From assembly GCA_963777505.1 (NCBI GenBank), contig CAVZQN010000001.1, positions 640,001-704,000 of the forward strand: a stretch of DNA of 64,000 bases, read 5' to 3'. Shown one piece after another: positions 2,535 through 63,114 of the stretch. Both the position numbers and the translations under genes were made by a program. This stretch comes from an uncultured bacterium. GTDB lineage: Bacteria > Acidobacteriota > HRBIN11 > JAKEFK01. Below the pieces are notes generated by a model. That model searched no databases. It had not been told where the DNA came from and saw only the letters and a list, made by a program, of their open reading frames with translations. Numbering within the stretch: the stretch's first letter is position 1; every line of letters starts with the position of its first letter.

Positions 2535-4736
2535 CTATCTCGTATCCGTTTTAATCGGAACTCGCACTTTGACGGATGTCCCGTTTCCGGGTGAGCCACT
2601 TACTTCCACATCTCCCCCCAGAAACAAAGCCCGTTCACGCATACCCAAAAGTCCGAATGAACGACTTTTGGAAAGATCGTCCATCGTTACCCCGCGGCCA
2701 TTATCCTTTACTTCCATGATTAACTCGCCATTGTGTCTCGTTAAGAAAATATCCACCTGACTTGCACCAGAATGACGTGCAACATTTGTTAATGCTTCTT
2801 GCAAAATCCGGAAAATTGCAGTTTCGCTCTCACGGTCAGTGACATCAATAAAATCCATTGTGGGATCCAATTTGCATTCAATACCAGATCGAGACTGGAA
2901 TTCTTGTGCCTGCCATTCGATTGCAGATCTTAATCCGAGATGATCTAAAACTTCAGGTCTAAGCTCAGTAACGATCTTTCGTACTGATTTGATCGTTGCA
3001 TCCACTTTTTTCGTCATTGACTTAATTTCGTCATGCAGTAGACGCCGCGGCAAAACGGCGCTGGATTCAAGCAATTTATGACTTAAGAGTGAGAGATCCA
3101 TTTTTAAGGCTGTTAAAACTTGCCCGAGTTCATCATGAACTTCACGTGCAATTCTTGTCCGCTCTTCTTCACGAATGAATTGAAGGTGAGCTGATAAAGC
3201 GCGCATTTGTTCCCTCGATGCACGCAACTGTTCATCGGCTCTCTTCCGATCTGTTATGTCCTGAGAAGTACCCACCATTTTTTGAGGTTTCCCATCCGAA
3301 CCAACGACTACTTCGCCTCGTCCCTGAAGATAACGAATCTCGCCATCGGGCCAGACAATTCGATATTCGATACTAAAAGGACGTTGTGCGCGTCTTATTT
3401 CTTCGAGCGTTGGGAGGTCTTCCGGATGCACTCTCTCTAATATTTTTTCGCTCGAAATCTGCTCCGCTGGATCGAAGCCAAAAATACGATACATTTCCTG
3501 GGACCAACTTATTGAATTCGAATCAATATCAAATTCCCAACTCCCTATTTGTGCAATTCGCTGAGCAGATTGAAGTTGCATTTCATTTCGCCGCAATTTG
3601 TCTGCAGCCATCTTCTCTTTCGTAATATCGCGCACAATTTTTGAAATCCCAACCACTTCTCCTGCTTTGTTTCTGATAGGCGAAACTGTAAGGGAAACAT
3701 CTATTCGTGTACCATCTCTTCGAAGTCGAACAGTCTCCAAATTTCCTACAGCGCCACCTTCCTTCAAAAGTTCCATATTCAAACTATGTTCCAGTTTTTT
3801 ATCATCAGGCACAATGATACTGATATGAGATCCTAATATTTCAGCTGCGGTATGTCCGAACATGAATTCTGCGGATGGATTCCAACTTAAAATGATTCCA
3901 TCCAAAGATACACTGATGATCGCATCGTCAGAATACTGCACAATACTTGCAAGCTGAGAAGATAGCACTTCTGATTCTTTTCTTTGTATGGCGGTTCCAA
4001 GCATATTCGCAACTGTTTGCAAGAAATTCACTTCATCCTGATTGAATTCTCTCGATTTTTTTGTGTGCGCTCCGAGCACTCCAAATGGTTTATCGTGTCC
4101 CAGAATTACAACATTAACTCCGCTGTCAATTCCTAGATCCAACAAATATGGTGCCGGCTTAAATCTGTTTTCGTTCCTTAAATTCGAATAAAGGAGTGGA
4201 TCTTTTTTTTCTAACGTAAAACCGGCATTTCCACCGCTATCAAGTGAACGAGTTTCTGAAACTTCAACAGGCCAACCGGAAAAAGCGCGAAGGTTAAGTG
4301 ATTTTCGATCTGCCGAAGTTTCAACAATGTCACAAAACTCAACATCCAGAATTTGTGAAATCAAGAAGCAAGATTCTCTCATAAGCCCATCAAGATCTGC
4401 GCCACTCAGCGCACGCTGTCCGAGCTCAGCAATAACGCCATGCTGCAAGACTTGTCTTGCGAGTTGATCATCACTCTTTTGTAATGATGAGGATATCTCG
4501 AAGAGCACCTCATCCGTTTTTTCTAGAGCGGATGAAATTGAGTCGTAGGCATCATCGCGCTTCCTAAGAACAGAATTAACCTTGCTTAGTTCACCTTCGG
4601 CATCTTTTAATGCACTGGATACCTTGTTCAGTTCACTAGCTGTTCTTTCTATCTCAGAGGATGCACGTAGGATTTCCTGCTCTTTCGATTCCAACAGCTT
4701 GCGGCCTGCTATAAGATTCCGCAAAAATCGTAACAT
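2535..4736 (-). CDS. Cytoplasmic GAF-PAS-PAS sensor histidine kinase (HisKA_3 type)
   Basis: EEERTRIAREVHDELGQ H-box, QEALTNVARH, DNGRG and GLLGMRER motifs; GAF and two PAS/PAC domains; no TM segment. Confidence 0.93.
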   Translation of the reverse strand: MLRFLRNLIAGRKLLESKEQEILRASSEIERTASELNKVSSALKDAEGELSKVNSVLRKRDDAYDSISSALEKTDEVLFEISSSLQKSDDQLARQVLQHGVIAELGQRALSGADLDGLMRESCFLISQILDVEFCDIVETSADRKSLNLRAFSGWPVEVSETRSLDSGGNAGFTLEKKDPLLYSNLRNENRFKPAPYLLDLGIDSGVNVVILGHDKPFGVLGAHTKKSREFNQDEVNFLQTVANMLGTAIQRKESEVLSSQLASIVQYSDDAIISVSLDGIILSWNPSAEFMFGHTAAEILGSHISIIVPDDKKLEHSLNMELLKEGGAVGNLETVRLRRDGTRIDVSLTVSPIRNKAGEVVGISKIVRDITKEKMAADKLRRNEMQLQSAQRIAQIGSWEFDIDSNSISWSQEMYRIFGFDPAEQISSEKILERVHPEDLPTLEEIRRAQRPFSIEYRIVWPDGEIRYLQGRGEVVVGSDGKPQKMVGTSQDITDRKRADEQLRASREQMRALSAHLQFIREEERTRIAREVHDELGQVLTALKMDLSLLSHKLLESSAVLPRRLLHDEIKSMTKKVDATIKSVRKIVTELRPEVLDHLGLRSAIEWQAQEFQSRSGIECKLDPTMDFIDVTDRESETAIFRILQEALTNVARHSGASQVDIFLTRHNGELIMEVKDNGRGVTMDDLSKSRSFGLLGMRERALFLGGDVEVSGSPGNGTSVKVRVPIKTDTR

Positions 4737-58303: not shown

Positions 58304-58316
58304 ATATTCCTGTGCG

Positions 58317-58374
58317 GCCCAACGCTCCGATTCAGCGGCGGCGCAGCGCCGTCCGCTGCAACCGGTTGTTAGGC
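58317..58374 (-). other. Canonical short attC site (58 bp)
   Basis: Minus strand GCCTAACAACCGGTTGCAGCGGACGGCGCTGCGCCGCCGCTGAATCGGAGCGTTGGGC; the upstream gene stops in the R'' TAA. Confidence 0.92.
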
Positions 58375-59670
58375 GGCGCTGGCATTGACAGATCGACTCC
58401 TACGCTTGCGTCGAATCGACCAGGCGATTGTTGGCACAGCCAGGACGATCACGAGGCTGCCGAGACCGATCAGGCGAAGCATCCCCGGGATCGCCATCGT
58501 GAACGCGAGGAAGTCCACGTTGCCCGTTTCCCAGAAGACCCACTCGCCGGCCAGCCGCGTAGCGAGGAGGGGCTTACCGGTCTCGAGAATCACGATGCCG
58601 TTGCCGGTGGCCGGGTTGAGACGTGCGGCGGTATTTATCGCAGGCTCGTTGTTGCCGTCATGACCGACGACGAAGCCACCTTTGTTGTTGCTGGCGTACA
58701 GGATGGTTCCAAGGCCCCAGATGTCTTCCGAAAACTTGGATGCGTGCGGCCGCCACATCTCGTTGATGATTGCTGGCGCAAGCACGCCGCGCCCAATCGG
58801 CTCGCCGTTCTTTCCCGGTAGGTGGGCCTGAACGAAACGCGTGAGGTCGGACACCGACGTGTACAGCGACGTAGCCGCAACCGCCGAAAAACGATAGTGA
58901 GTCGACGGTTTGGAGTCGACGTCGTAGAACGTCGCGAGTGTCGATCCCTCTGCAGGTGTCCAACTGTATGACGAGCGAACCATACCCAAGGGTCGGAAGA
59001 TGACGCGCTGCATGAAGCCCTCGAACGATTCGCCGCTCACTTCTTCGATCAGGAGCTGAAGGATTGCATAGCCACCTCCCGAGTACCGCCACTCGGACCC
59101 GGGCTCGTATCCGACCTCTATAGTGCCGCTGGCCCCGGGAGACACATCCGCGGGTCGCTTGAGGGATTCTTCCAGTGACTGCACGGCCGCGTTGGGCGCG
59201 AAGCCGGCGTAGCCAAGTCCGTCGGTGAGCCCGGCGGTGTGACTCAGCAGCCGCCGCACCGTCACCTTGTTGTTGTCGAACTTGCTTTCGGGGAGCGCCC
59301 ACCGGGTCAGGTAGGTGCTAACGGGTGCGTCCAGGTCGAGCTTTCCCTCTTGGACGAGCGCCATAACACCCCAAGCGGTGATCCACTTGCTGAGAGAAGC
59401 GGTTTGGAACACGGTATTCACGTCCACCGCTTCGCCGACGGAGACGGCATGGACGCCGTGGACAGAGCCATCGTCGATTACGGCGAACACAGCGTTGCCT
59501 GTGTTGCTGGAATCGACGAGCTTGGCAGCGGCGTCCATGAACCCGGCGGTGTCACCGCGAGGAGCGAGTGTCTGCTTCCACCAGCCTTCCGAGGTCCCAA
59601 CGAACACGACGACGGCCCACAGAACGAGGAGCGCGAGAGTTGCTAAACCGACGCGAAACACAGCTTTCAT
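58369..59670 (-). CDS. Cassette-encoded serine hydrolase (beta-lactamase/AmpC-like family), membrane-anchored
   Basis: SLSK (SxxK), LLSHTAG, WRYSGGGY, HDG; GC-rich. Confidence 0.88.
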   Translation of the reverse strand: MKAVFRVGLATLALLVLWAVVVFVGTSEGWWKQTLAPRGDTAGFMDAAAKLVDSSNTGNAVFAVIDDGSVHGVHAVSVGEAVDVNTVFQTASLSKWITAWGVMALVQEGKLDLDAPVSTYLTRWALPESKFDNNKVTVRRLLSHTAGLTDGLGYAGFAPNAAVQSLEESLKRPADVSPGASGTIEVGYEPGSEWRYSGGGYAILQLLIEEVSGESFEGFMQRVIFRPLGMVRSSYSWTPAEGSTLATFYDVDSKPSTHYRFSAVAATSLYTSVSDLTRFVQAHLPGKNGEPIGRGVLAPAIINEMWRPHASKFSEDIWGLGTILYASNNKGGFVVGHDGNNEPAINTAARLNPATGNGIVILETGKPLLATRLAGEWVFWETGNVDFLAFTMAIPGMLRLIGLGSLVIVLAVPTIAWSIRRKRRSRSVNASAA

Positions 59671-59764
59671 TTGATCCTCTCACTCGTTTCGATACGCTGA
59701 TCTTGTTCTTGCGACGCGTCGTCTTTCTAGCCAGCCGCAGCCGCCACAGTGAGAGTCGTACGCC

Positions 59765-59845
59765 GCCTAACGCTTGAACTCAGCGGCGCGAATCCGCGGA
59801 TGAGCGAAGCGAAGACGCGGTGAGCGTCCGCTGCAGTGAATTGTT
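59765..59845 (-). other. attC site, distal part (R'' box displaced to 61077-61083 by the IS insertion)
   Basis: Minus strand AACAATTCACTGCAGCGGACG...CGCCGCTGAGTTCAAGCGTTAGGC. Confidence 0.85.
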
Positions 59846-61076
59846 CTATGAAAGGAAGTCAAGTCGAAAGATAGTTCCCTTCATTGTGGGCTTTCCTAGA
59901 ATAGCACCCACTGCGGTTGTATTTTACTGAAAAAGTCGGCAATGCTCCAAATGAGTCCTTTGTTAAGGGAAGTTTTTTTAGCAGACGTTGATTTTGCAAT
60001 CACTTTATTTTGTGCTGAAAATTTTTTCTTACTGATTTAGCCGAAAATGATTTTTGGTAACCAAAGTTCTATTTGTGGCTCAAAGGCCAACGGCCATTAT
60101 CCGTTTATCCGAAGGGGCATACCGTTAGGCAGGTGCCTGGCTGGTTGTATAGCCGGCTGACAACTCACTTTGATGCTCACCTTCGATTGGCAGCAATGAA
60201 AAATTCAGCAACGCCTGAATTCAGCAATGAATCGTGGCTCGCCTGTTTTCCATCGCTAATTGAACGAAATCATTTTTGCTGTACTAAATGTTTCACCTCG
60301 CTTCCAAAGAATAAGAGTGATTGATGCAAGTTTTCTTGCAATCGAAAGGATTGCCATTTCGGCCCGAATCCCTTTGGCAATCTTTCGCCGGTACAATGTT
60401 TTCATCGGATCTTTTCGGATTGCTTCCACTGCCGCACTCTTAAAAACCATTTTTAGAATGCGATTGTAATCGCGCGTAAGACCGCGAGTGGCATGCTTGT
60501 GCTGTTTTCGAATGACCGGCCACCGATGATGTCATGATCAGAACTGGAATGAATGACAACCGATAATCCACTGTAACTGCAAAGCTGACGGTCGGTTCGA
60601 AAACGGTGCGGAGTACCAATGACAGCTATCATAAACGCTGCGCGAATTGGACCAAAACCGGGAATCCCACGCAAAATCCTTTGTATTGGATAACGCCTGG
60701 CTTCCTTTAGAAATACTTTCTTGATTTCTTTGCGTTGTTCTTTGAGTAAATCTAACTGAGTGTAGTAAAGAACAGCTCGCATCCTACTTTCATCAATTGG
60801 AAATTTCGAAAGCCACTCTTGCCGATTTCGTTTGTAATAAACATCTCGACCCACACAGCAAATCGACCAACCTCGGTAAAGCGCCTTGATCCGATTCATC
60901 ACTCGAATTGAATCACTGACTGTGGCTAAATAACCATGAGCCAAGTCCCTCAGTTTGCGAGTGTTTCGATCCCCTTGATAGATTTTGTTTAGTTCGCCAA
61001 GCCGTAACCAATTTGCTATTAGTTGTAGTTTCATCAACCACAGACTAACACTCAGGGGTGCCCTTTCTATATATCC
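59846..61076 (-). mobile_element. IS110-family (IS1111-like) insertion sequence inserted in an attC
   Basis: AAC core on both flanks; sub-terminal IR-like TAT(A)GAAAGG; TTGACT near the right end; ~410-bp non-coding region downstream of the transposase. Confidence 0.82.
60256..61037 (-). pseudogene. IS110 transposase remnant (N-terminal DEDD domain missing, frameshifted)
   Basis: IPGFGPIRAA, RFRTDRQLCSYSGL...SS, then ARKLA in a second frame; only ~260 codons. Confidence 0.85.
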
Positions 61077-61106
61077 GTTAGCCGGCCTGACGGGACAACG
61101 GTCGTT

Positions 61107-62378
61107 TTAACGACGGGAGGCTCCCGCCGCGCGGGCCGGATCCGGGTTCAGCCGATCGAGACCCACTCGCCCATTGCTGATCACGAGCAGTGGGTCTTGC
61201 ACGGTGGTAATGTCCTCGAGCGGGTTCTTTTCGATAGCGATGAGGTCTGCCTCGTACCCGGCTTCAACCAACCCGATCGACTTTTCCAACTGCAGCATTT
61301 CAGCAGCACGGATCGTCACCGCCTGAATGGACTCGAGCGGTGTAAAACCCAATTCGACAAAATACGTCATCTCTTGCCCGATGCGGATAAGACTGTTTGG
61401 CTCGTAATTTGTGTCCGTGGCAGCGACTATTCTTGTCCCGATCCTGTGCGCGCGCTGTAGCATGTCGCGTGTCCGCGGTAGCATATGCTGTCCTCGGATG
61501 CGGAGTGCCGCCGAGTCGAAGGCGCCGCCGGCATCGCGCACGTCGATTATCACTCCGTAGGTGGCAACCAGATATACACCCTGCACCTTCATGAGCTCTA
61601 GTGTGGCGTCTGACAGGTACGTGCCGTGCTCGATACTGCGCGCGCCCGCCCTGATCGCCGCTACTGCGCCTTCATCTCCGTGTGCGTGGGCCTGAACCGG
61701 CACGTTCTTGGTGGCGGCTTCCTGGACGATTGCGCGAATTTCGTCCTCGGTGTAGACCTGTTTACGGGGATCGGTGTCGGCTGTGGCAGCGCGCTCCGTG
61801 GCATGAACCTTGATCCAGTCGACGCCGTGCGAGAGATTCATCCGGACCGCCCGTCGTATGCGGTCGATTGTCGTGACGCCGGCCATCAAATCCCAGTACT
61901 GGGGATCGGATAAGAAAGCTTCGTTCGCGAGCTGTGGACGCACATGGTAGCCGGCGGCGAGGACGTCTGGACCGGCTAATGCGCCCGTCTTCACGAGCTC
62001 GCGGAAGCCGACGTCGGTGTAATTAGACACGCCACCACTACGCGCCGTAGTCACGCCCGATTCGAGTGCGCGCCGGAACGCCTCCAGGTTCGCTGCGTGC
62101 ATGTGCGCGTCGATGAGCCCGGGCAATACATACTTCCCTTTTAGATCGACCCTCTTTGTATCGGCTGGTGGCGGATTCGAGCCGATCGATTCGATCTTTC
62201 CGTTGCGCAGGACGATCGTCGCGCTTGCGGTAATGCGACCGCTGCGAACGTCGACGATGCTCGCATTCATCAACGCGAGAGGGTCATCTGAGTTTGTCGT
62301 TAGTACCTGTGCCGTCGCGCCAACAGAAAGGCAGATAGCGGCAACGAGGCAGAGAGCAGTCACTATGAGTGGTCGCAT
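61107..62378 (-). CDS. Cassette-encoded amidohydrolase (prolidase-like) with signal peptide
   Basis: PGLIDAHMH, WIK, AHAHG, SIEHG, ATD, GYEADL; GGAGG RBS; GC-rich. Confidence 0.9.
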   Translation of the reverse strand: MRPLIVTALCLVAAICLSVGATAQVLTTNSDDPLALMNASIVDVRSGRITASATIVLRNGKIESIGSNPPPADTKRVDLKGKYVLPGLIDAHMHAANLEAFRRALESGVTTARSGGVSNYTDVGFRELVKTGALAGPDVLAAGYHVRPQLANEAFLSDPQYWDLMAGVTTIDRIRRAVRMNLSHGVDWIKVHATERAATADTDPRKQVYTEDEIRAIVQEAATKNVPVQAHAHGDEGAVAAIRAGARSIEHGTYLSDATLELMKVQGVYLVATYGVIIDVRDAGGAFDSAALRIRGQHMLPRTRDMLQRAHRIGTRIVAATDTNYEPNSLIRIGQEMTYFVELGFTPLESIQAVTIRAAEMLQLEKSIGLVEAGYEADLIAIEKNPLEDITTVQDPLLVISNGRVGLDRLNPDPARAAGASRR

Positions 62379-62541: not shown

Positions 62542-63114
62542 CTATTTTGCAGTTTGGCTAATTTCGCGCGACAACCATGCGCGCGCGGCAGCCCAATGAC
62601 GATCCACATTTCGTGGAGAGATTGACATTGCTAGCGCCGTTTCTTTTACAGTCAAGCCTGCAAAGCATCGCAATTTCACAACATCAGCCATTTGCATATC
62701 TTGTTCTTGAAGTTTCGTTAAAGCACGGTCAAATGAAAGAAGAAGATCAGGATTCGATTGCACTGCGGCCATATCATCAGTCAATGTGATTCTTCTTTGA
62801 TTCCCCGCGCGTTTCAGACTGGCTCTCCGGCGCGCGTTATCAACAAGAATTTGACGCATAGCTTCGGCTGCAACTGCAAAAAAATGTCTACGATTTTCCC
62901 AGCGCGGTTGTTCAGATTGAAGCAGCCGCAGATAAACTTCATGAACCAACGCTGTCGCTTGAAGTGTTTGCCCTGGTTGTTTGGCCATCTGAGCCCGGGC
63001 CATTTTACGGAGTTGTTCGTAAACTAACGGAAATAATTCCTGAACAGCTTCCTTATCCCCCAAGCTGATGGATTCGAGGATTTGAGTAATCTGGTTACTC
63101 GATGGTTCCGTCAT
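62542..63114 (-). CDS. ECF sigma factor, TIGR02999-type (kinase-associated)
   Basis: LFPLVYEQLR, TLQATALVHEVYLRL, HFFAVAAEAMRQILVD, ARAWL. Confidence 0.92.
   Translation of the reverse strand: MTEPSSNQITQILESISLGDKEAVQELFPLVYEQLRKMARAQMAKQPGQTLQATALVHEVYLRLLQSEQPRWENRRHFFAVAAEAMRQILVDNARRRASLKRAGNQRRITLTDDMAAVQSNPDLLLSFDRALTKLQEQDMQMADVVKLRCFAGLTVKETALAMSISPRNVDRHWAAARAWLSREISQTAK

What the first reader, a model, noticed from the sequence alone, without database searches (positions are those of the whole stretch)
59846..60255. Candidate bridge/seek RNA in the IS non-coding end with attC-matching and donor-matching segments
Seen: within ~95 nt of the ~410-bp downstream non-coding region (minus strand) are GCCGGCTA (60150-60157; equals the target flank), GCCTAAC (60124-60130; attC R'' consensus with core), AACGGATA (60098-60105; core plus IS left end) and ATAGAAC (60066-60072; IS right end plus core). 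Established: IS110/IS1111 recombinases are guided by a non-coding RNA whose loops pair with target and donor DNA, encoded downstream of the transposase in IS1111. Inference: these are guide segments of an RNA programmed against integron attC sites. The matches are short, I could not assign the reverse-complement guides, and the local transposase is defective, so any activity would be in trans.
Basis: partly seen in the sequence, partly recalled or inferred. Interest (0 to 1): 0.75.

Follow-up and report, generated by a model that had tools for sequence, protein, structure and literature searches.

The report
Bridge RNA gene in decayed IS
The non-coding tail of a broken insertion sequence sitting in an integron recombination site still carries the gene for its guide ("bridge" or "seek") RNA, a known kind of RNA that tells the element's recombinase where to insert.

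Summary
The stretch is a bridge/seek RNA gene of an IS1111-type element (61076-59846, minus strand) inserted after the AAC of an attC R'' box. A covariance model built only from 22 distant relatives finds one hit in the 64-kb window, 60187-60054(-), E=3e-16. The fold shows compensatory changes. Across 12 lineages the loop strands match each element's own flanks (0 of 100000 permutations).

Two reader segments are guides: GCCTAAC is part of the left target guide (60132-60124) and ATAGAAC is the left donor guide (60072-60066). The other two are not guides. GCCGGCTA is a hairpin stem arm, and AACGGATA is the same-sense arm of a local hairpin. The missing reverse-complement guide is AGUGAGUUGU (60169-60160). 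The right donor guide is only tentative.

The recombinase gene is broken and the genome holds no intact one, so this RNA gene is an orphan. RNA guidance of attC-targeting IS1111 elements is published (PMC11187229). This is a new member of a known kind, from a distant clade.

The parts
59846..61076 (-). IS1111-type insertion sequence, decayed copy. Left end GGATATATAG... at 61076, right end ...TTTCATAG at 59846.
   Evidence: It aligns end to end with the intact relative in L010 (2634-4180), apart from a 310-bp internal deletion. The flanks diverge exactly at these ends.
61077..61083 (-). Left part of the interrupted attC: R'' box GGCTAAC, whose last bases AAC (61079-61077) are repeated at 59845-59843.
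   Evidence: Read directly. The cassette genes are on the minus strand.
59765..59845 (-). Right part of the interrupted attC: AAC, then AATTCACTGCAGCGGACG..., ending in the R' box GTTAGGC (59771-59765).
   Evidence: The neighbouring uninterrupted attC at 58312-58382 folds as an imperfect hairpin.
60256..61037 (-). Remains of the DEDD recombinase gene. About the first 97 codons are lost in a 310-bp deletion, and there is a frameshift near 60507-60516.
   Evidence: PF02371 at E=2.8e-11; PF01548 only residual, E=0.01, below the cut-off; residues 97-268 and 266-351 of the intact relative match in two different frames; 310-column gap.
60054..60187 (-). Bridge/seek RNA gene (extent of the covariance-model match).
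   Evidence: the model was built from 22 relatives with no sequence of this lineage. It gives one hit in the window: 66.8 bits, E=3.1e-16, model positions 1-134 of 134; 94% identical to L010 here (125 of 133), against 70-80% in the rest of the element apart from the left end.
60180..60185 (-). P1 5' arm CGAAGG. It pairs with CCUUCG at 60115-60110 and closes the target-loop arm.
   Evidence: helix 1 is 99% paired, and 4 of its 12 pairs show changes on both sides.
60160..60169 (-). Right target guide (RTG) AGUGAGUUGU, complementary to the top strand of core plus right flank, ACAATTCACT.
   Evidence: 9 Watson-Crick pairs plus 1 G-T. The homologous position gives 10 of 10 in L094-L096 and 9+1 in L010; own flanks are matched better than other lineages' flanks.
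60135..60157 (-). Hairpin inside the target loop: GCCGGCU / loop / AGCC-A-GGC.
   Evidence: the stem is identical in L010 while the loop differs. It is a hairpin position in all relatives.
60122..60132 (-). Left target guide (LTG) CUGCCUAAC (60132-60124), same sense as left flank plus core, followed by GG (60123-60122), which equals the first two bases of the left end.
   Evidence: 7 of 9 identical to this copy's flank and 7 of 9 in L010. The L094-type guide GCGCCGAAC matches the L095 flank 9 of 9..
60110..60121 (-). UAUGCC plus the P1 3' arm CCUUCG.
60090..60102 (-). 5' strand of the donor loop. The candidate right donor guide (RDG) is ...AAUGGCCGU, of which CCGU (60093-60090) is complementary to core AC plus left end GG.
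   Evidence: 6 Watson-Crick plus 1 G-T of 10 here, 7 of 10 in L010, 9 of 10 in L094/L095; one covarying position is complementary in 62 of 62 relatives; no own-versus-cross signal. Tentative.
60076..60089 (-). P3 hairpin UGGC / CUUUGA / GCCA.
   Evidence: Relatives have AGGC...GCCU. In the window the outer pair is U-A, read by hand, because the MAFFT columns are shifted by one there.
60066..60072 (-). Left donor guide (LDG) AUAGAAC, same sense as right end plus core.
   Evidence: 7 of 7; it equals right end plus core in 59 of 63 readable rows and changes with it (ATAGATC, ATAGGAC, ATAGGAT).
60053..60065 (-). P4 hairpin UUUGG-UUA-CCAAA. Its GGUU (60062-60059) could instead pair with AAAC (60106-60103), the counterpart of the relatives' P2 stem.
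   Evidence: Which of the two pairings holds in this lineage is not resolved.
60028..60052 (-). Conserved tail after the modelled RNA.
   Evidence: the conserved block continues to about 60028 in L010 and partly in L007. Its role is unknown.
59857..59862 (-). TTGACT, a -35-like hexamer 10 nt inside the right end. After circle formation it would face TATATA of the left end across a 17-nt spacer.
   Evidence: Read; TTGACA is conserved in relatives. A junction promoter is described for this family in PMC11187229 (discussion). Inference, not tested. No promoter-like site was found inside the integrated copy.

Best explanation
Window 60187-60054 (minus strand) is the bridge RNA (seekRNA) gene of an IS1111-type insertion sequence that inserted after the AAC of the R'' box of an integron attC site.

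The RNA has two arms. In the target arm, stem P1 closes an internal loop. [quoted passage not shown] Shown here: family membership, the conserved fold, and guide-to-flank and guide-to-end correspondence across relatives.

Inferred from published work on IS621, ISEc11 and ISKpn4: the RNA is made, binds the DEDD recombinase, and brings the circular element and the target together.

In this genome the recombinase gene is broken and no intact copy exists. This RNA gene is therefore most likely a recently orphaned relic that is intact in sequence but idle.
For: (1) Leave-out test. A covariance model built from 22 relatives that share 43-49% recombinase identity with this element, with no sequence of this lineage, gives a single hit in the 64-kb window. 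The hit is 60187-60054(-), 66.8 bits, E=3.1e-16, and covers the full model. The same model hits the homologous place in L010 and L094-L096.

(2) Fold. On 24 sequences, 96.9% of cells are paired, against 33-56% when partners are slid. 8 of 23 pairs show changes on both sides, against 1.2 in shuffles (0 of 500 shuffles reach the observed value).

(3) Target guides. In 12 lineages with different flanks, each RNA's loop strands match its own flanks best. Diagonal sums are 99 for RTG and 77 for LTG, against permutation means of 59.5 and 46.0 (0 of 100000 permutations reach them). Across 16 lineages the own and cross means are 8.38 vs 4.86 and 6.25 vs 3.62.

(4) Within this lineage the RTG changes with the attC spacer. 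The window has AGUGAGUUGU against ACAATTCACT (9+1), L010 has AGUGACUUGU against ACAAGTCATT (9+1), and L094-L096 have AACGACUUGU against ACAAGTCGTT (10 of 10). LTG GCGCCGAAC equals the L095 flank 9 of 9.

(5) The LDG equals right end plus core in 59 of 63 rows and covaries with it.

(6) The RNA block is 94% identical to L010 (125 of 133). The recombinase gene is 79-80% identical and the other non-coding parts 70-78%.

(7) Context. Recombinase domains are present, there is a long non-coding end downstream of the gene, sub-terminal inverted repeats can be read, and the element sits in an attC with the recombinase gene in cassette orientation.

(8) Literature. IS1111 elements carry the RNA in the right end (PMC11208160, passages read). 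ISKpn4, ISPst6 and ISPa25 target attC with a seekRNA, with the top-strand match 5' of the bottom-strand match (PMC11187229, passages and two sections read).
Against: There are no expression data.

No intact recombinase exists in the 95.9%-complete genome. Only two decayed copies carry IS110-family domains.

This copy's own site matches its LTG at only 7 of 9 positions, and its RTG needs one G-T pair. An RTG-like run of 10 or more arises in 67 of 5000 shuffles of the RNA alone.

The right donor guide is weak here (6+1 of 10). A contiguous-run test across lineages shows no own-versus-cross signal (3.19 vs 3.06).

The stem that closes the donor loop in relatives (AACC:GGUU) is 3 of 4 here, and a local hairpin competes with it.

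Sites matching the guide-coded target are not enriched genome-wide: 7 against 9 for a reversed pattern at up to 3 mismatches, and 234 against 493 for a reversed genome at score 13 or more.

Rfam 15 has no model that recognises the stretch.
Confidence: 0.85

Rival explanations
1. The conserved block acts as DNA, not RNA. It would be a recombinase- or host-factor-binding site, or a single-stranded DNA structure formed during transposition, and the word matches would reflect DNA-DNA recognition of target and ends.
For: Nothing here shows a transcript (one search listed no RNA holder; no promoter-like site lies inside the integrated copy). Compensatory changes would also fit a folded single DNA strand. 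attC sites themselves act as folded single strands (established knowledge).
Against: For relatives in the same family the RNA has been purified with the recombinase and shown to be essential and reprogrammable (PMC11187229 abstract and discussion; PMC11208160). G-U pairs are tolerated in the helices: UG is the commonest pair at 2 positions and GU at 1, and GC/GU alternate in P3. That is typical of RNA.
Confidence: 0.07
2. The RNA gene is not idle. It is transcribed by read-through from the cassette array and can still guide a recombinase supplied in trans by an incoming relative, or it has been taken over by the host.
For: The element lies in the same orientation as the cassette genes. The RNA block carries no obvious disabling change relative to the intact relative (8 substitutions and 4 gap columns in 133 aligned positions). 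Near-identical right ends occur next to other attC flanks in soil contigs (run X1 record 1).
Against: No recombinase partner is present in this genome. The 94% identity reflects constraint while both lineages were active and says nothing about selection since the decay. There are no expression data.
Confidence: 0.06
3. The word matches are chance matches in a non-coding spacer.
For: Each word is short. One of them (GCCGGCTA) is indeed best explained as a coincidence helped by a GC-rich palindrome. 1092 of 5000 shuffles give at least one 7-nt match.
Against: 0 of 5000 shuffles give four matches. The leave-out model hit has E=3e-16. There is covariation with flanks.
Confidence: 0.02

Closest known systems
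seekRNAs of the attC-targeting IS1111 elements ISKpn4, ISPst6 and ISPa25 (Siddiquee et al. 2024, PMC11187229)
   Same: The element is IS1111-type and the RNA is encoded downstream of the recombinase gene. The segment complementary to the top strand lies 5' of the segment complementary to the bottom strand. The target is one end of an integron attC. The size fits: the target arm is 76 nt here (60185-60110), against short seekRNAs of 70-100 nt, and the whole RNA is about 134-160 nt, against long forms of 145-170 nt.
   Different: The recombinase is at most 27% identical to any IS110-family gene in 72,556 plasmid records, and there is no nucleotide match there. The relatives are from soil Acidobacteriota assemblies.
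IS621 bridge RNA (Durrant et al. 2024, PMC11208160; Hiraizumi et al. 2024, PMC11208158)
   Same: There are two loops, one for the target and one for the element's own ends. [quoted passage not shown]
   Different: The RNA lies in the right end, not the left. The order of the two strands within each loop is reversed. The core is AC (within AAC), not CT. The sub-terminal inverted repeats are long. The two bases after the LTG match the left end in some lineages, which is not the published position of the handshake guides.
Natural retargeting, ISEc11 versus ISXne4 (PMC11187229, passage seen)
   Same: Related elements keep the scaffold and swap the target-reading words. Here, relatives with the same scaffold read attC (window lineage, L077) or other sites such as CCATTACAC|TCATTGAC.
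   Different: This is a different clade with different targets, and nothing has been tested experimentally.

Membership tests
IS1111 group of the IS110 family | DEDD (RuvC-like) plus Tnp-domain recombinase | tested here: met
   The intact relative L010 has PF01548 (E=1.4e-13) and PF02371 (E=2.5e-10). The window copy keeps PF02371 (E=2.8e-11) and only the tail of PF01548 (E=0.01, below cut-off).
IS1111 group of the IS110 family | The long non-coding end lies downstream of the recombinase gene; the left end is short | tested here: met
   410 nt lie downstream (60255-59846). In L010, 76 nt lie upstream of the start codon.
IS1111 group of the IS110 family | Sub-terminal inverted repeats | tested here: met
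   Read by eye. The left end has TATAGAAAGG and the reverse complement of the right end has TAT-GAAAGG (9 matches, 1 gap). Relatives have TATAAAAAGG at both ends. The repeat tool did not list it among its 25 longest pairs.
Bridge RNA / seekRNA | Conserved secondary structure with two guide-bearing loops | tested here: met
   In this lineage the stem closing the donor loop is weakened (3 of 4 pairs).
Bridge RNA / seekRNA | [quoted passage not shown] | tested here: met
Bridge RNA / seekRNA | The donor-loop strands pair with the element's right end (bottom strand) and left end (top strand) | tested here: inconclusive
   The LDG criterion is met (59 of 63 rows). For the RDG, one covarying position is complementary in 62 of 62 rows and L094 gives 9 of 10. 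However, the run-length test shows no own-versus-cross signal, and the register differs between lineages.
Bridge RNA / seekRNA | The RNA is made, binds the recombinase and is needed for movement | not testable with these tools
   No RNA run holds the stretch.
IS1111-attC group (Tetu and Holmes 2008; Post and Hall 2009) | Insertion at a fixed point and orientation in attC sites | tested here: met
   The window, L010 and L094/L095 all sit directly after the ...AAC of an R''-like box, followed by AA....TGCAGC(G/C)GAC. Orientation relative to the cassettes was checked for the window only. The defining papers were not readable here; the criterion is taken from PMC11187229.
IS1111-attC group (Tetu and Holmes 2008; Post and Hall 2009) | The recombinase belongs to the clade of ISPa21, ISKpn4 and ISPst6 | not tested
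   No reference sequence was on hand. At most 27% identity to plasmid-borne IS110-family genes makes close kinship unlikely.

The most novel reading that the evidence does not exclude
A soil-borne clade of IS1111 elements centred on Acidobacteriota, far from the proteobacterial IS1111-attC group, came to target integron attC sites on its own by rewriting the two strands of one RNA loop. Its right target guide reads the variable spacer next to the R'' box rather than a conserved box. Variants of the element are therefore tuned to individual attC subfamilies: three guide variants match three spacer variants, and further guide-position variants occur in soil contigs.
Probability: 0.4. Interest if true: 0.45.

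Novelty: new member of a known kind. Interest (0 to 1): 0.38.

Why it matters
It adds a well-resolved natural example to the RNA-guided recombinases. One scaffold is shared by at least a dozen lineages whose target words differ, and the flanks needed to read the code are known. Such sets show which positions of an IS1111-type bridge RNA can be reprogrammed, which matters for engineering. This one also shows how these elements invade integron cassette arrays. The window itself contributes only a dead copy: it marks a past invasion and leaves an interrupted attC between an amidohydrolase cassette and a beta-lactamase-family cassette.

Tried and rejected
Rfam 15 at E up to 10 over 59500-61400 gave only two chance-level matches elsewhere in the element.

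blastn (word 11) of the whole element against plasmids found nothing. tblastn with the intact relative found 1033 records, all at 27% identity or less (at E<=1e-20 found none). I opened one Klebsiella hit hoping for ISKpn4. It was not in an integron, and I dropped that line.

Tetu and Holmes 2008 is not held. The seekRNA sequences of ISKpn4, ISPst6 and ISPa25 are in supplements I could not see. They may show whether the RNAs are alike.

The single-sequence fold proposed a long-range stem, 60185-60177 with 60049-60041. I rejected it because it competes with P1, which has compensatory changes.

Target census: no enrichment of guide-coded sites in the genome. The reversed-genome control gave more hits than the genome did, so it may be a poor control. 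A simple attC motif search was too unspecific to use.

RDG: the longest-run measure showed no signal. The L016 row of the LDG matrix in that call is an extraction artefact.

Extended pairing: RNA 60169-60150 is complementary to the top strand across the whole site, left flank included, at 17 of 20 positions counting 2 G-T pairs. The same reading gives only 6 of 10 beyond the core in L010 and is out of register in L094/L095, so I treat it as coincidence in GC-rich sequence.

The model's second hit in the genome (C6:399623-399724, 29.9 bits) lies inside an ORF on the other strand and covers only part of the model. It is probably chance.

No RNA holder was listed for the stretch. The tree of 18 recombinases puts the window lineage on a long branch, so it does not settle whether attC targeting arose once or twice.

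Full report
WHAT IS THERE.
On the minus strand, a low-GC element runs from 61076 (GGATATATAG...) to 59846 (...TTTCATAG). AAC stands on both sides, at 61079-61077 and 59845-59843. It sits between two high-GC minus-strand cassettes. One is an amidohydrolase (61107-62378; PF01979, E=2.5e-40). The other is a beta-lactamase-family serine hydrolase (58369-59670; PF00144, E=1.5e-52).

The flanks are the two parts of one attC. GGCTAAC lies to the left. To the right come AATTCACTGCAGCGGACG... and then GTTAGGC at 59771-59765. The next attC, at 58312-58382, is uninterrupted and folds as an imperfect hairpin. The element is therefore inserted directly after the AAC of the R'' box, with its recombinase gene in cassette orientation.

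THE RECOMBINASE GENE IS BROKEN.
The two open frames (61037-60453 and 60450-60256) carry PF02371 (E=2.8e-11) and only the tail of PF01548 (E=0.01, below cut-off). A same-genus genome holds an intact copy (L010 = L005). That element spans 2634-4180 and encodes a 351-aa protein with both domains.

Aligned to it, the window copy lacks 310 bp that cover the start and about 97 codons. It also changes frame near 60507-60516. The genome is 95.9% complete. It holds only one other fragment, on contig C11 (92% identical, without ends or non-coding tail), and no intact IS110-family gene.

All four words are at the stated places. Against the two junction sequences, the 92-nt stretch shares four same-sense matches of 7 nt or more. 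None of 5000 dinucleotide shuffles reaches four; 1092 reach one.

RELATIVES AND A COMMON RNA.
A protein-guided scan of one genome per species returned 79 loci. One has 86% recombinase identity (L010). The others have 43-49% and come mostly from Acidobacteriota assemblies.

In 69 of 80 sequences (the window plus 79 loci), the tail downstream of the gene carries the same scaffold. The other 11 lack a motif or end too early. The 69 sequences comprise 40 distinct RNAs.

RNAalifold on 24 of them gives this layout:
- P1 closes an arm that holds an internal loop with an inner hairpin.
- P2 and P3 enclose a second internal loop.

Counting pairs on that structure:
- 96.9% of 551 cells are paired, against 33-56% when partners are slid.
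- 8 of 23 pairs have changes on both sides, against a shuffle mean of 1.2 (0 of 500 shuffles reach 8).

For an independent test I built a covariance model from 22 relatives only, leaving out this lineage. It finds exactly one place in the 64-kb window: 60187-60054(-), 66.8 bits, E=3.1e-16, full length. It also finds the homologous places in L010 and in three metagenome contigs.

Between the window and L010, identity by region is as follows:
- the RNA block: 94% (125 of 133);
- the recombinase gene: 79-80%;
- the other non-coding parts: 70-78%;
- the 38-nt left end: 100%.

READING THE LOOPS.
Definitions follow Durrant et al. (passages read). Left guides pair with the bottom strand, so they read like the top strand. 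Right guides pair with the top strand. The core is included in both.

I located the ends and flanks of 64 elements. I then compared each RNA's loop strands with its own and with other lineages' flanks.

- Target loop, 5' strand (RTG): mean longest pairing run is 8.38 with own flank and 4.86 with others.
- Target loop, 3' strand (LTG): 6.25 with own flank and 3.62 with others (16 lineages).
- For 12 lineages with distinct targets, no permutation of 100000 reaches the observed sums.

Examples: L077 UUAUCUUGUU pairs with AACAAGATAA; L082 and L049 differ by one guide base, and their flanks differ by the matching base.

In this window:
- The RTG is AGUGAGUUGU (60169-60160), paired with ACAATTCACT (9 Watson-Crick pairs plus 1 G-T).
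- The LTG is CUGCCUAAC (60132-60124), compared with CCGGCTAAC (7 of 9 identical).

In the intact L010, the RTG differs by one base and so does the spacer (9+1). A third variant came from the single metagenome scan (L094-L096). Its RTG is AACGACUUGU against ACAAGTCGTT (10 of 10). Its LTG, GCGCCGAAC, equals the L095 flank 9 of 9.

Soil contigs laid on the element show further changes at the guide positions 60164 and 60167. They also show near-identical right ends next to other attC flanks.

DONOR LOOP.
AUAGAAC (60072-60066) equals right end plus core. In relatives the same position equals right end plus core in 59 of 63 readable rows and changes with it: ATAGATC, ATAGGAC, ATAGGAT. Of the 64 rows, one was not extracted. 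The four misses are L012, whose right end looks decayed, and three copies with AGC at the junction.

The right donor guide is less clear. By position it is the 5' strand of the loop, 60102-60090, ending in CCGU, which is complementary to AC+GG. Pairing to core plus left end is 6+1 of 10 here, 7 of 10 in L010 and 9 of 10 in L094/L095.

In relatives, one position (seven bases 5' of P3) is complementary to left-end base 4 in 62 of 62 rows: 54 U:A and 8 A:T. On the tree this requires at least two changes. However, a run-length test shows no own-versus-cross signal (3.19 vs 3.06), and the register needs a one-base bulge in relatives. I call it tentative.

VERDICT ON THE FOUR SEGMENTS.
- GCCTAAC and ATAGAAC are guide words.
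- GCCGGCTA is the 5' arm of the inner hairpin of the target loop (GCCGGCU / AGCC-A-GGC). The arm is unchanged in L010, whose flank differs. The word is part of a self-complementary octamer, which makes matches in either sense easy.
- AACGGATA overlaps the counterpart of P2 and the start of the donor loop. It is same-sense, whereas the model needs the complement at that position. It pairs locally with CCGU. In this lineage the left end is itself nearly palindromic (GGATATAT), so both senses match. Relatives show no such word there.

HOW IT WOULD WORK (inferred from the literature).
The element excises as a circle. The right end-AAC-left end junction is read by the donor loop, and an attC by the target loop. 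The recombinase then exchanges strands at the AC core.

A -35-like TTGACT (59862-59857) would face TATATA of the left end across 17 nt in the circle. This is the kind of junction promoter discussed in PMC11187229. No promoter-like site lies inside the integrated copy, so here only read-through from the cassettes could make the RNA.

WHAT IT IS NOT.
Sites fitting the guide-coded target are not enriched in the genome. The single best site (score 16 of 17) is nevertheless an empty attC-like site on contig C4, 1.8 kb from a 45-bp relic of the same left end. There is no evidence that the RNA is expressed or used today.

COMPARISON WITH KNOWN SYSTEMS AND NOVELTY.
The following are all published (PMC11208160; PMC11187229):
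- RNA guidance in IS110/IS1111 elements;
- the location of the RNA in the right end for IS1111;
- the reversed order of the strand matches;
- seekRNAs of the attC-targeting ISKpn4, ISPst6 and ISPa25.

What is new is the lineage. Its recombinase is at most 27% identical to plasmid-borne family members. Its RNA is not recognised by Rfam 15. Its scaffold is shared with elements that read quite different sites, so attC targeting here looks like natural reprogramming. I file it as a new member of a known kind.

My reading agrees. I add that the genome does have an integron integrase on contig C11, beside the other fragment of this element.

Noticed in passing
L002 (own genome C11:223302-227046); integrase at C11:219574-220350: A second, more decayed fragment of the same element lies in a cassette array next to an integron integrase. 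The fragment is 92% identical over the gene, frameshifted, and has no ends or RNA tail. The integrase scores 376 bits on TIGR02249, above the cut-off. Its N-terminal piece matches separately with one stop inside, so the integrase may itself be broken.
   Followed up: partly
L003 (own genome C4:1775553-1775591) and C4:1777385-1777401: A 45-bp relic of the element's left end stands alone after ...GGTAAC. 1.8 kb away lies the genome's best match to the guide-coded target (CCGCCTAAC|AACTCGCT), an apparently empty attC-like site.
   Followed up: partly
window 60150-60169 (minus strand): The RTG plus the following hairpin arm is complementary to the top strand of the whole insertion site, left flank included, at 17 of 20 positions counting 2 G-T pairs. 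The other copies of the lineage do not reproduce this in register. It is probably coincidence, but it would amount to cognate pairing beyond the core, which locks IS621 (PMC11208158).
   Followed up: partly
window 60122-60123, and the same position in relatives: The two bases after the LTG equal the first two bases of the left end in this lineage (GG) and in the largest clade (GC). Other clades match one of the two bases (CC or GU) and L077 matches neither (UA). This could be a bottom-strand counterpart of the handshake guides, or just part of a stem.
   Followed up: no
L020, L061, L043: Relatives with a full-length recombinase frame (checked for L020 and L061) whose downstream RNA lacks the whole target-loop arm. 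The sequence runs straight from upstream sequence into UAUGCC..., so only the donor arm is present.
   Followed up: no
L039, L041, L042, L051, L053, L056-L058, L063 (one complete Acidobacteriaceae genome and its plasmid): Nine copies of one relative sit at sites of the form ...AATGCAC|(A)ACTCATTGA..., matching its guides. This is a ready-made natural data set for target rules.
   Followed up: partly
L017 and L037: Nearly identical elements occur in assemblies labelled Bryobacterales and Pseudolabrys, which are different phyla. This points to either recent transfer or a binning error.
   Followed up: no
L006 and L007 (G006, contig C19, 23 kb apart): Two fragments of one element of this lineage are separated by 23 kb. 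One ends just before the RTG and the other begins inside P1, next to an attC (GCCTAAC|ATCCAGATGCAGCGGACC). This suggests a rearrangement through the RNA gene.
   Followed up: no
L099 (own genome C6:399623-399724): A weak second hit of the RNA model (29.9 bits) lies inside an ORF on the opposite strand. It is probably chance.
   Followed up: partly
window 62542-63114: An ECF sigma factor gene (PF07638, E=9e-55) lies directly beyond the head of the cassette array, where an integrase would be expected.
   Followed up: no
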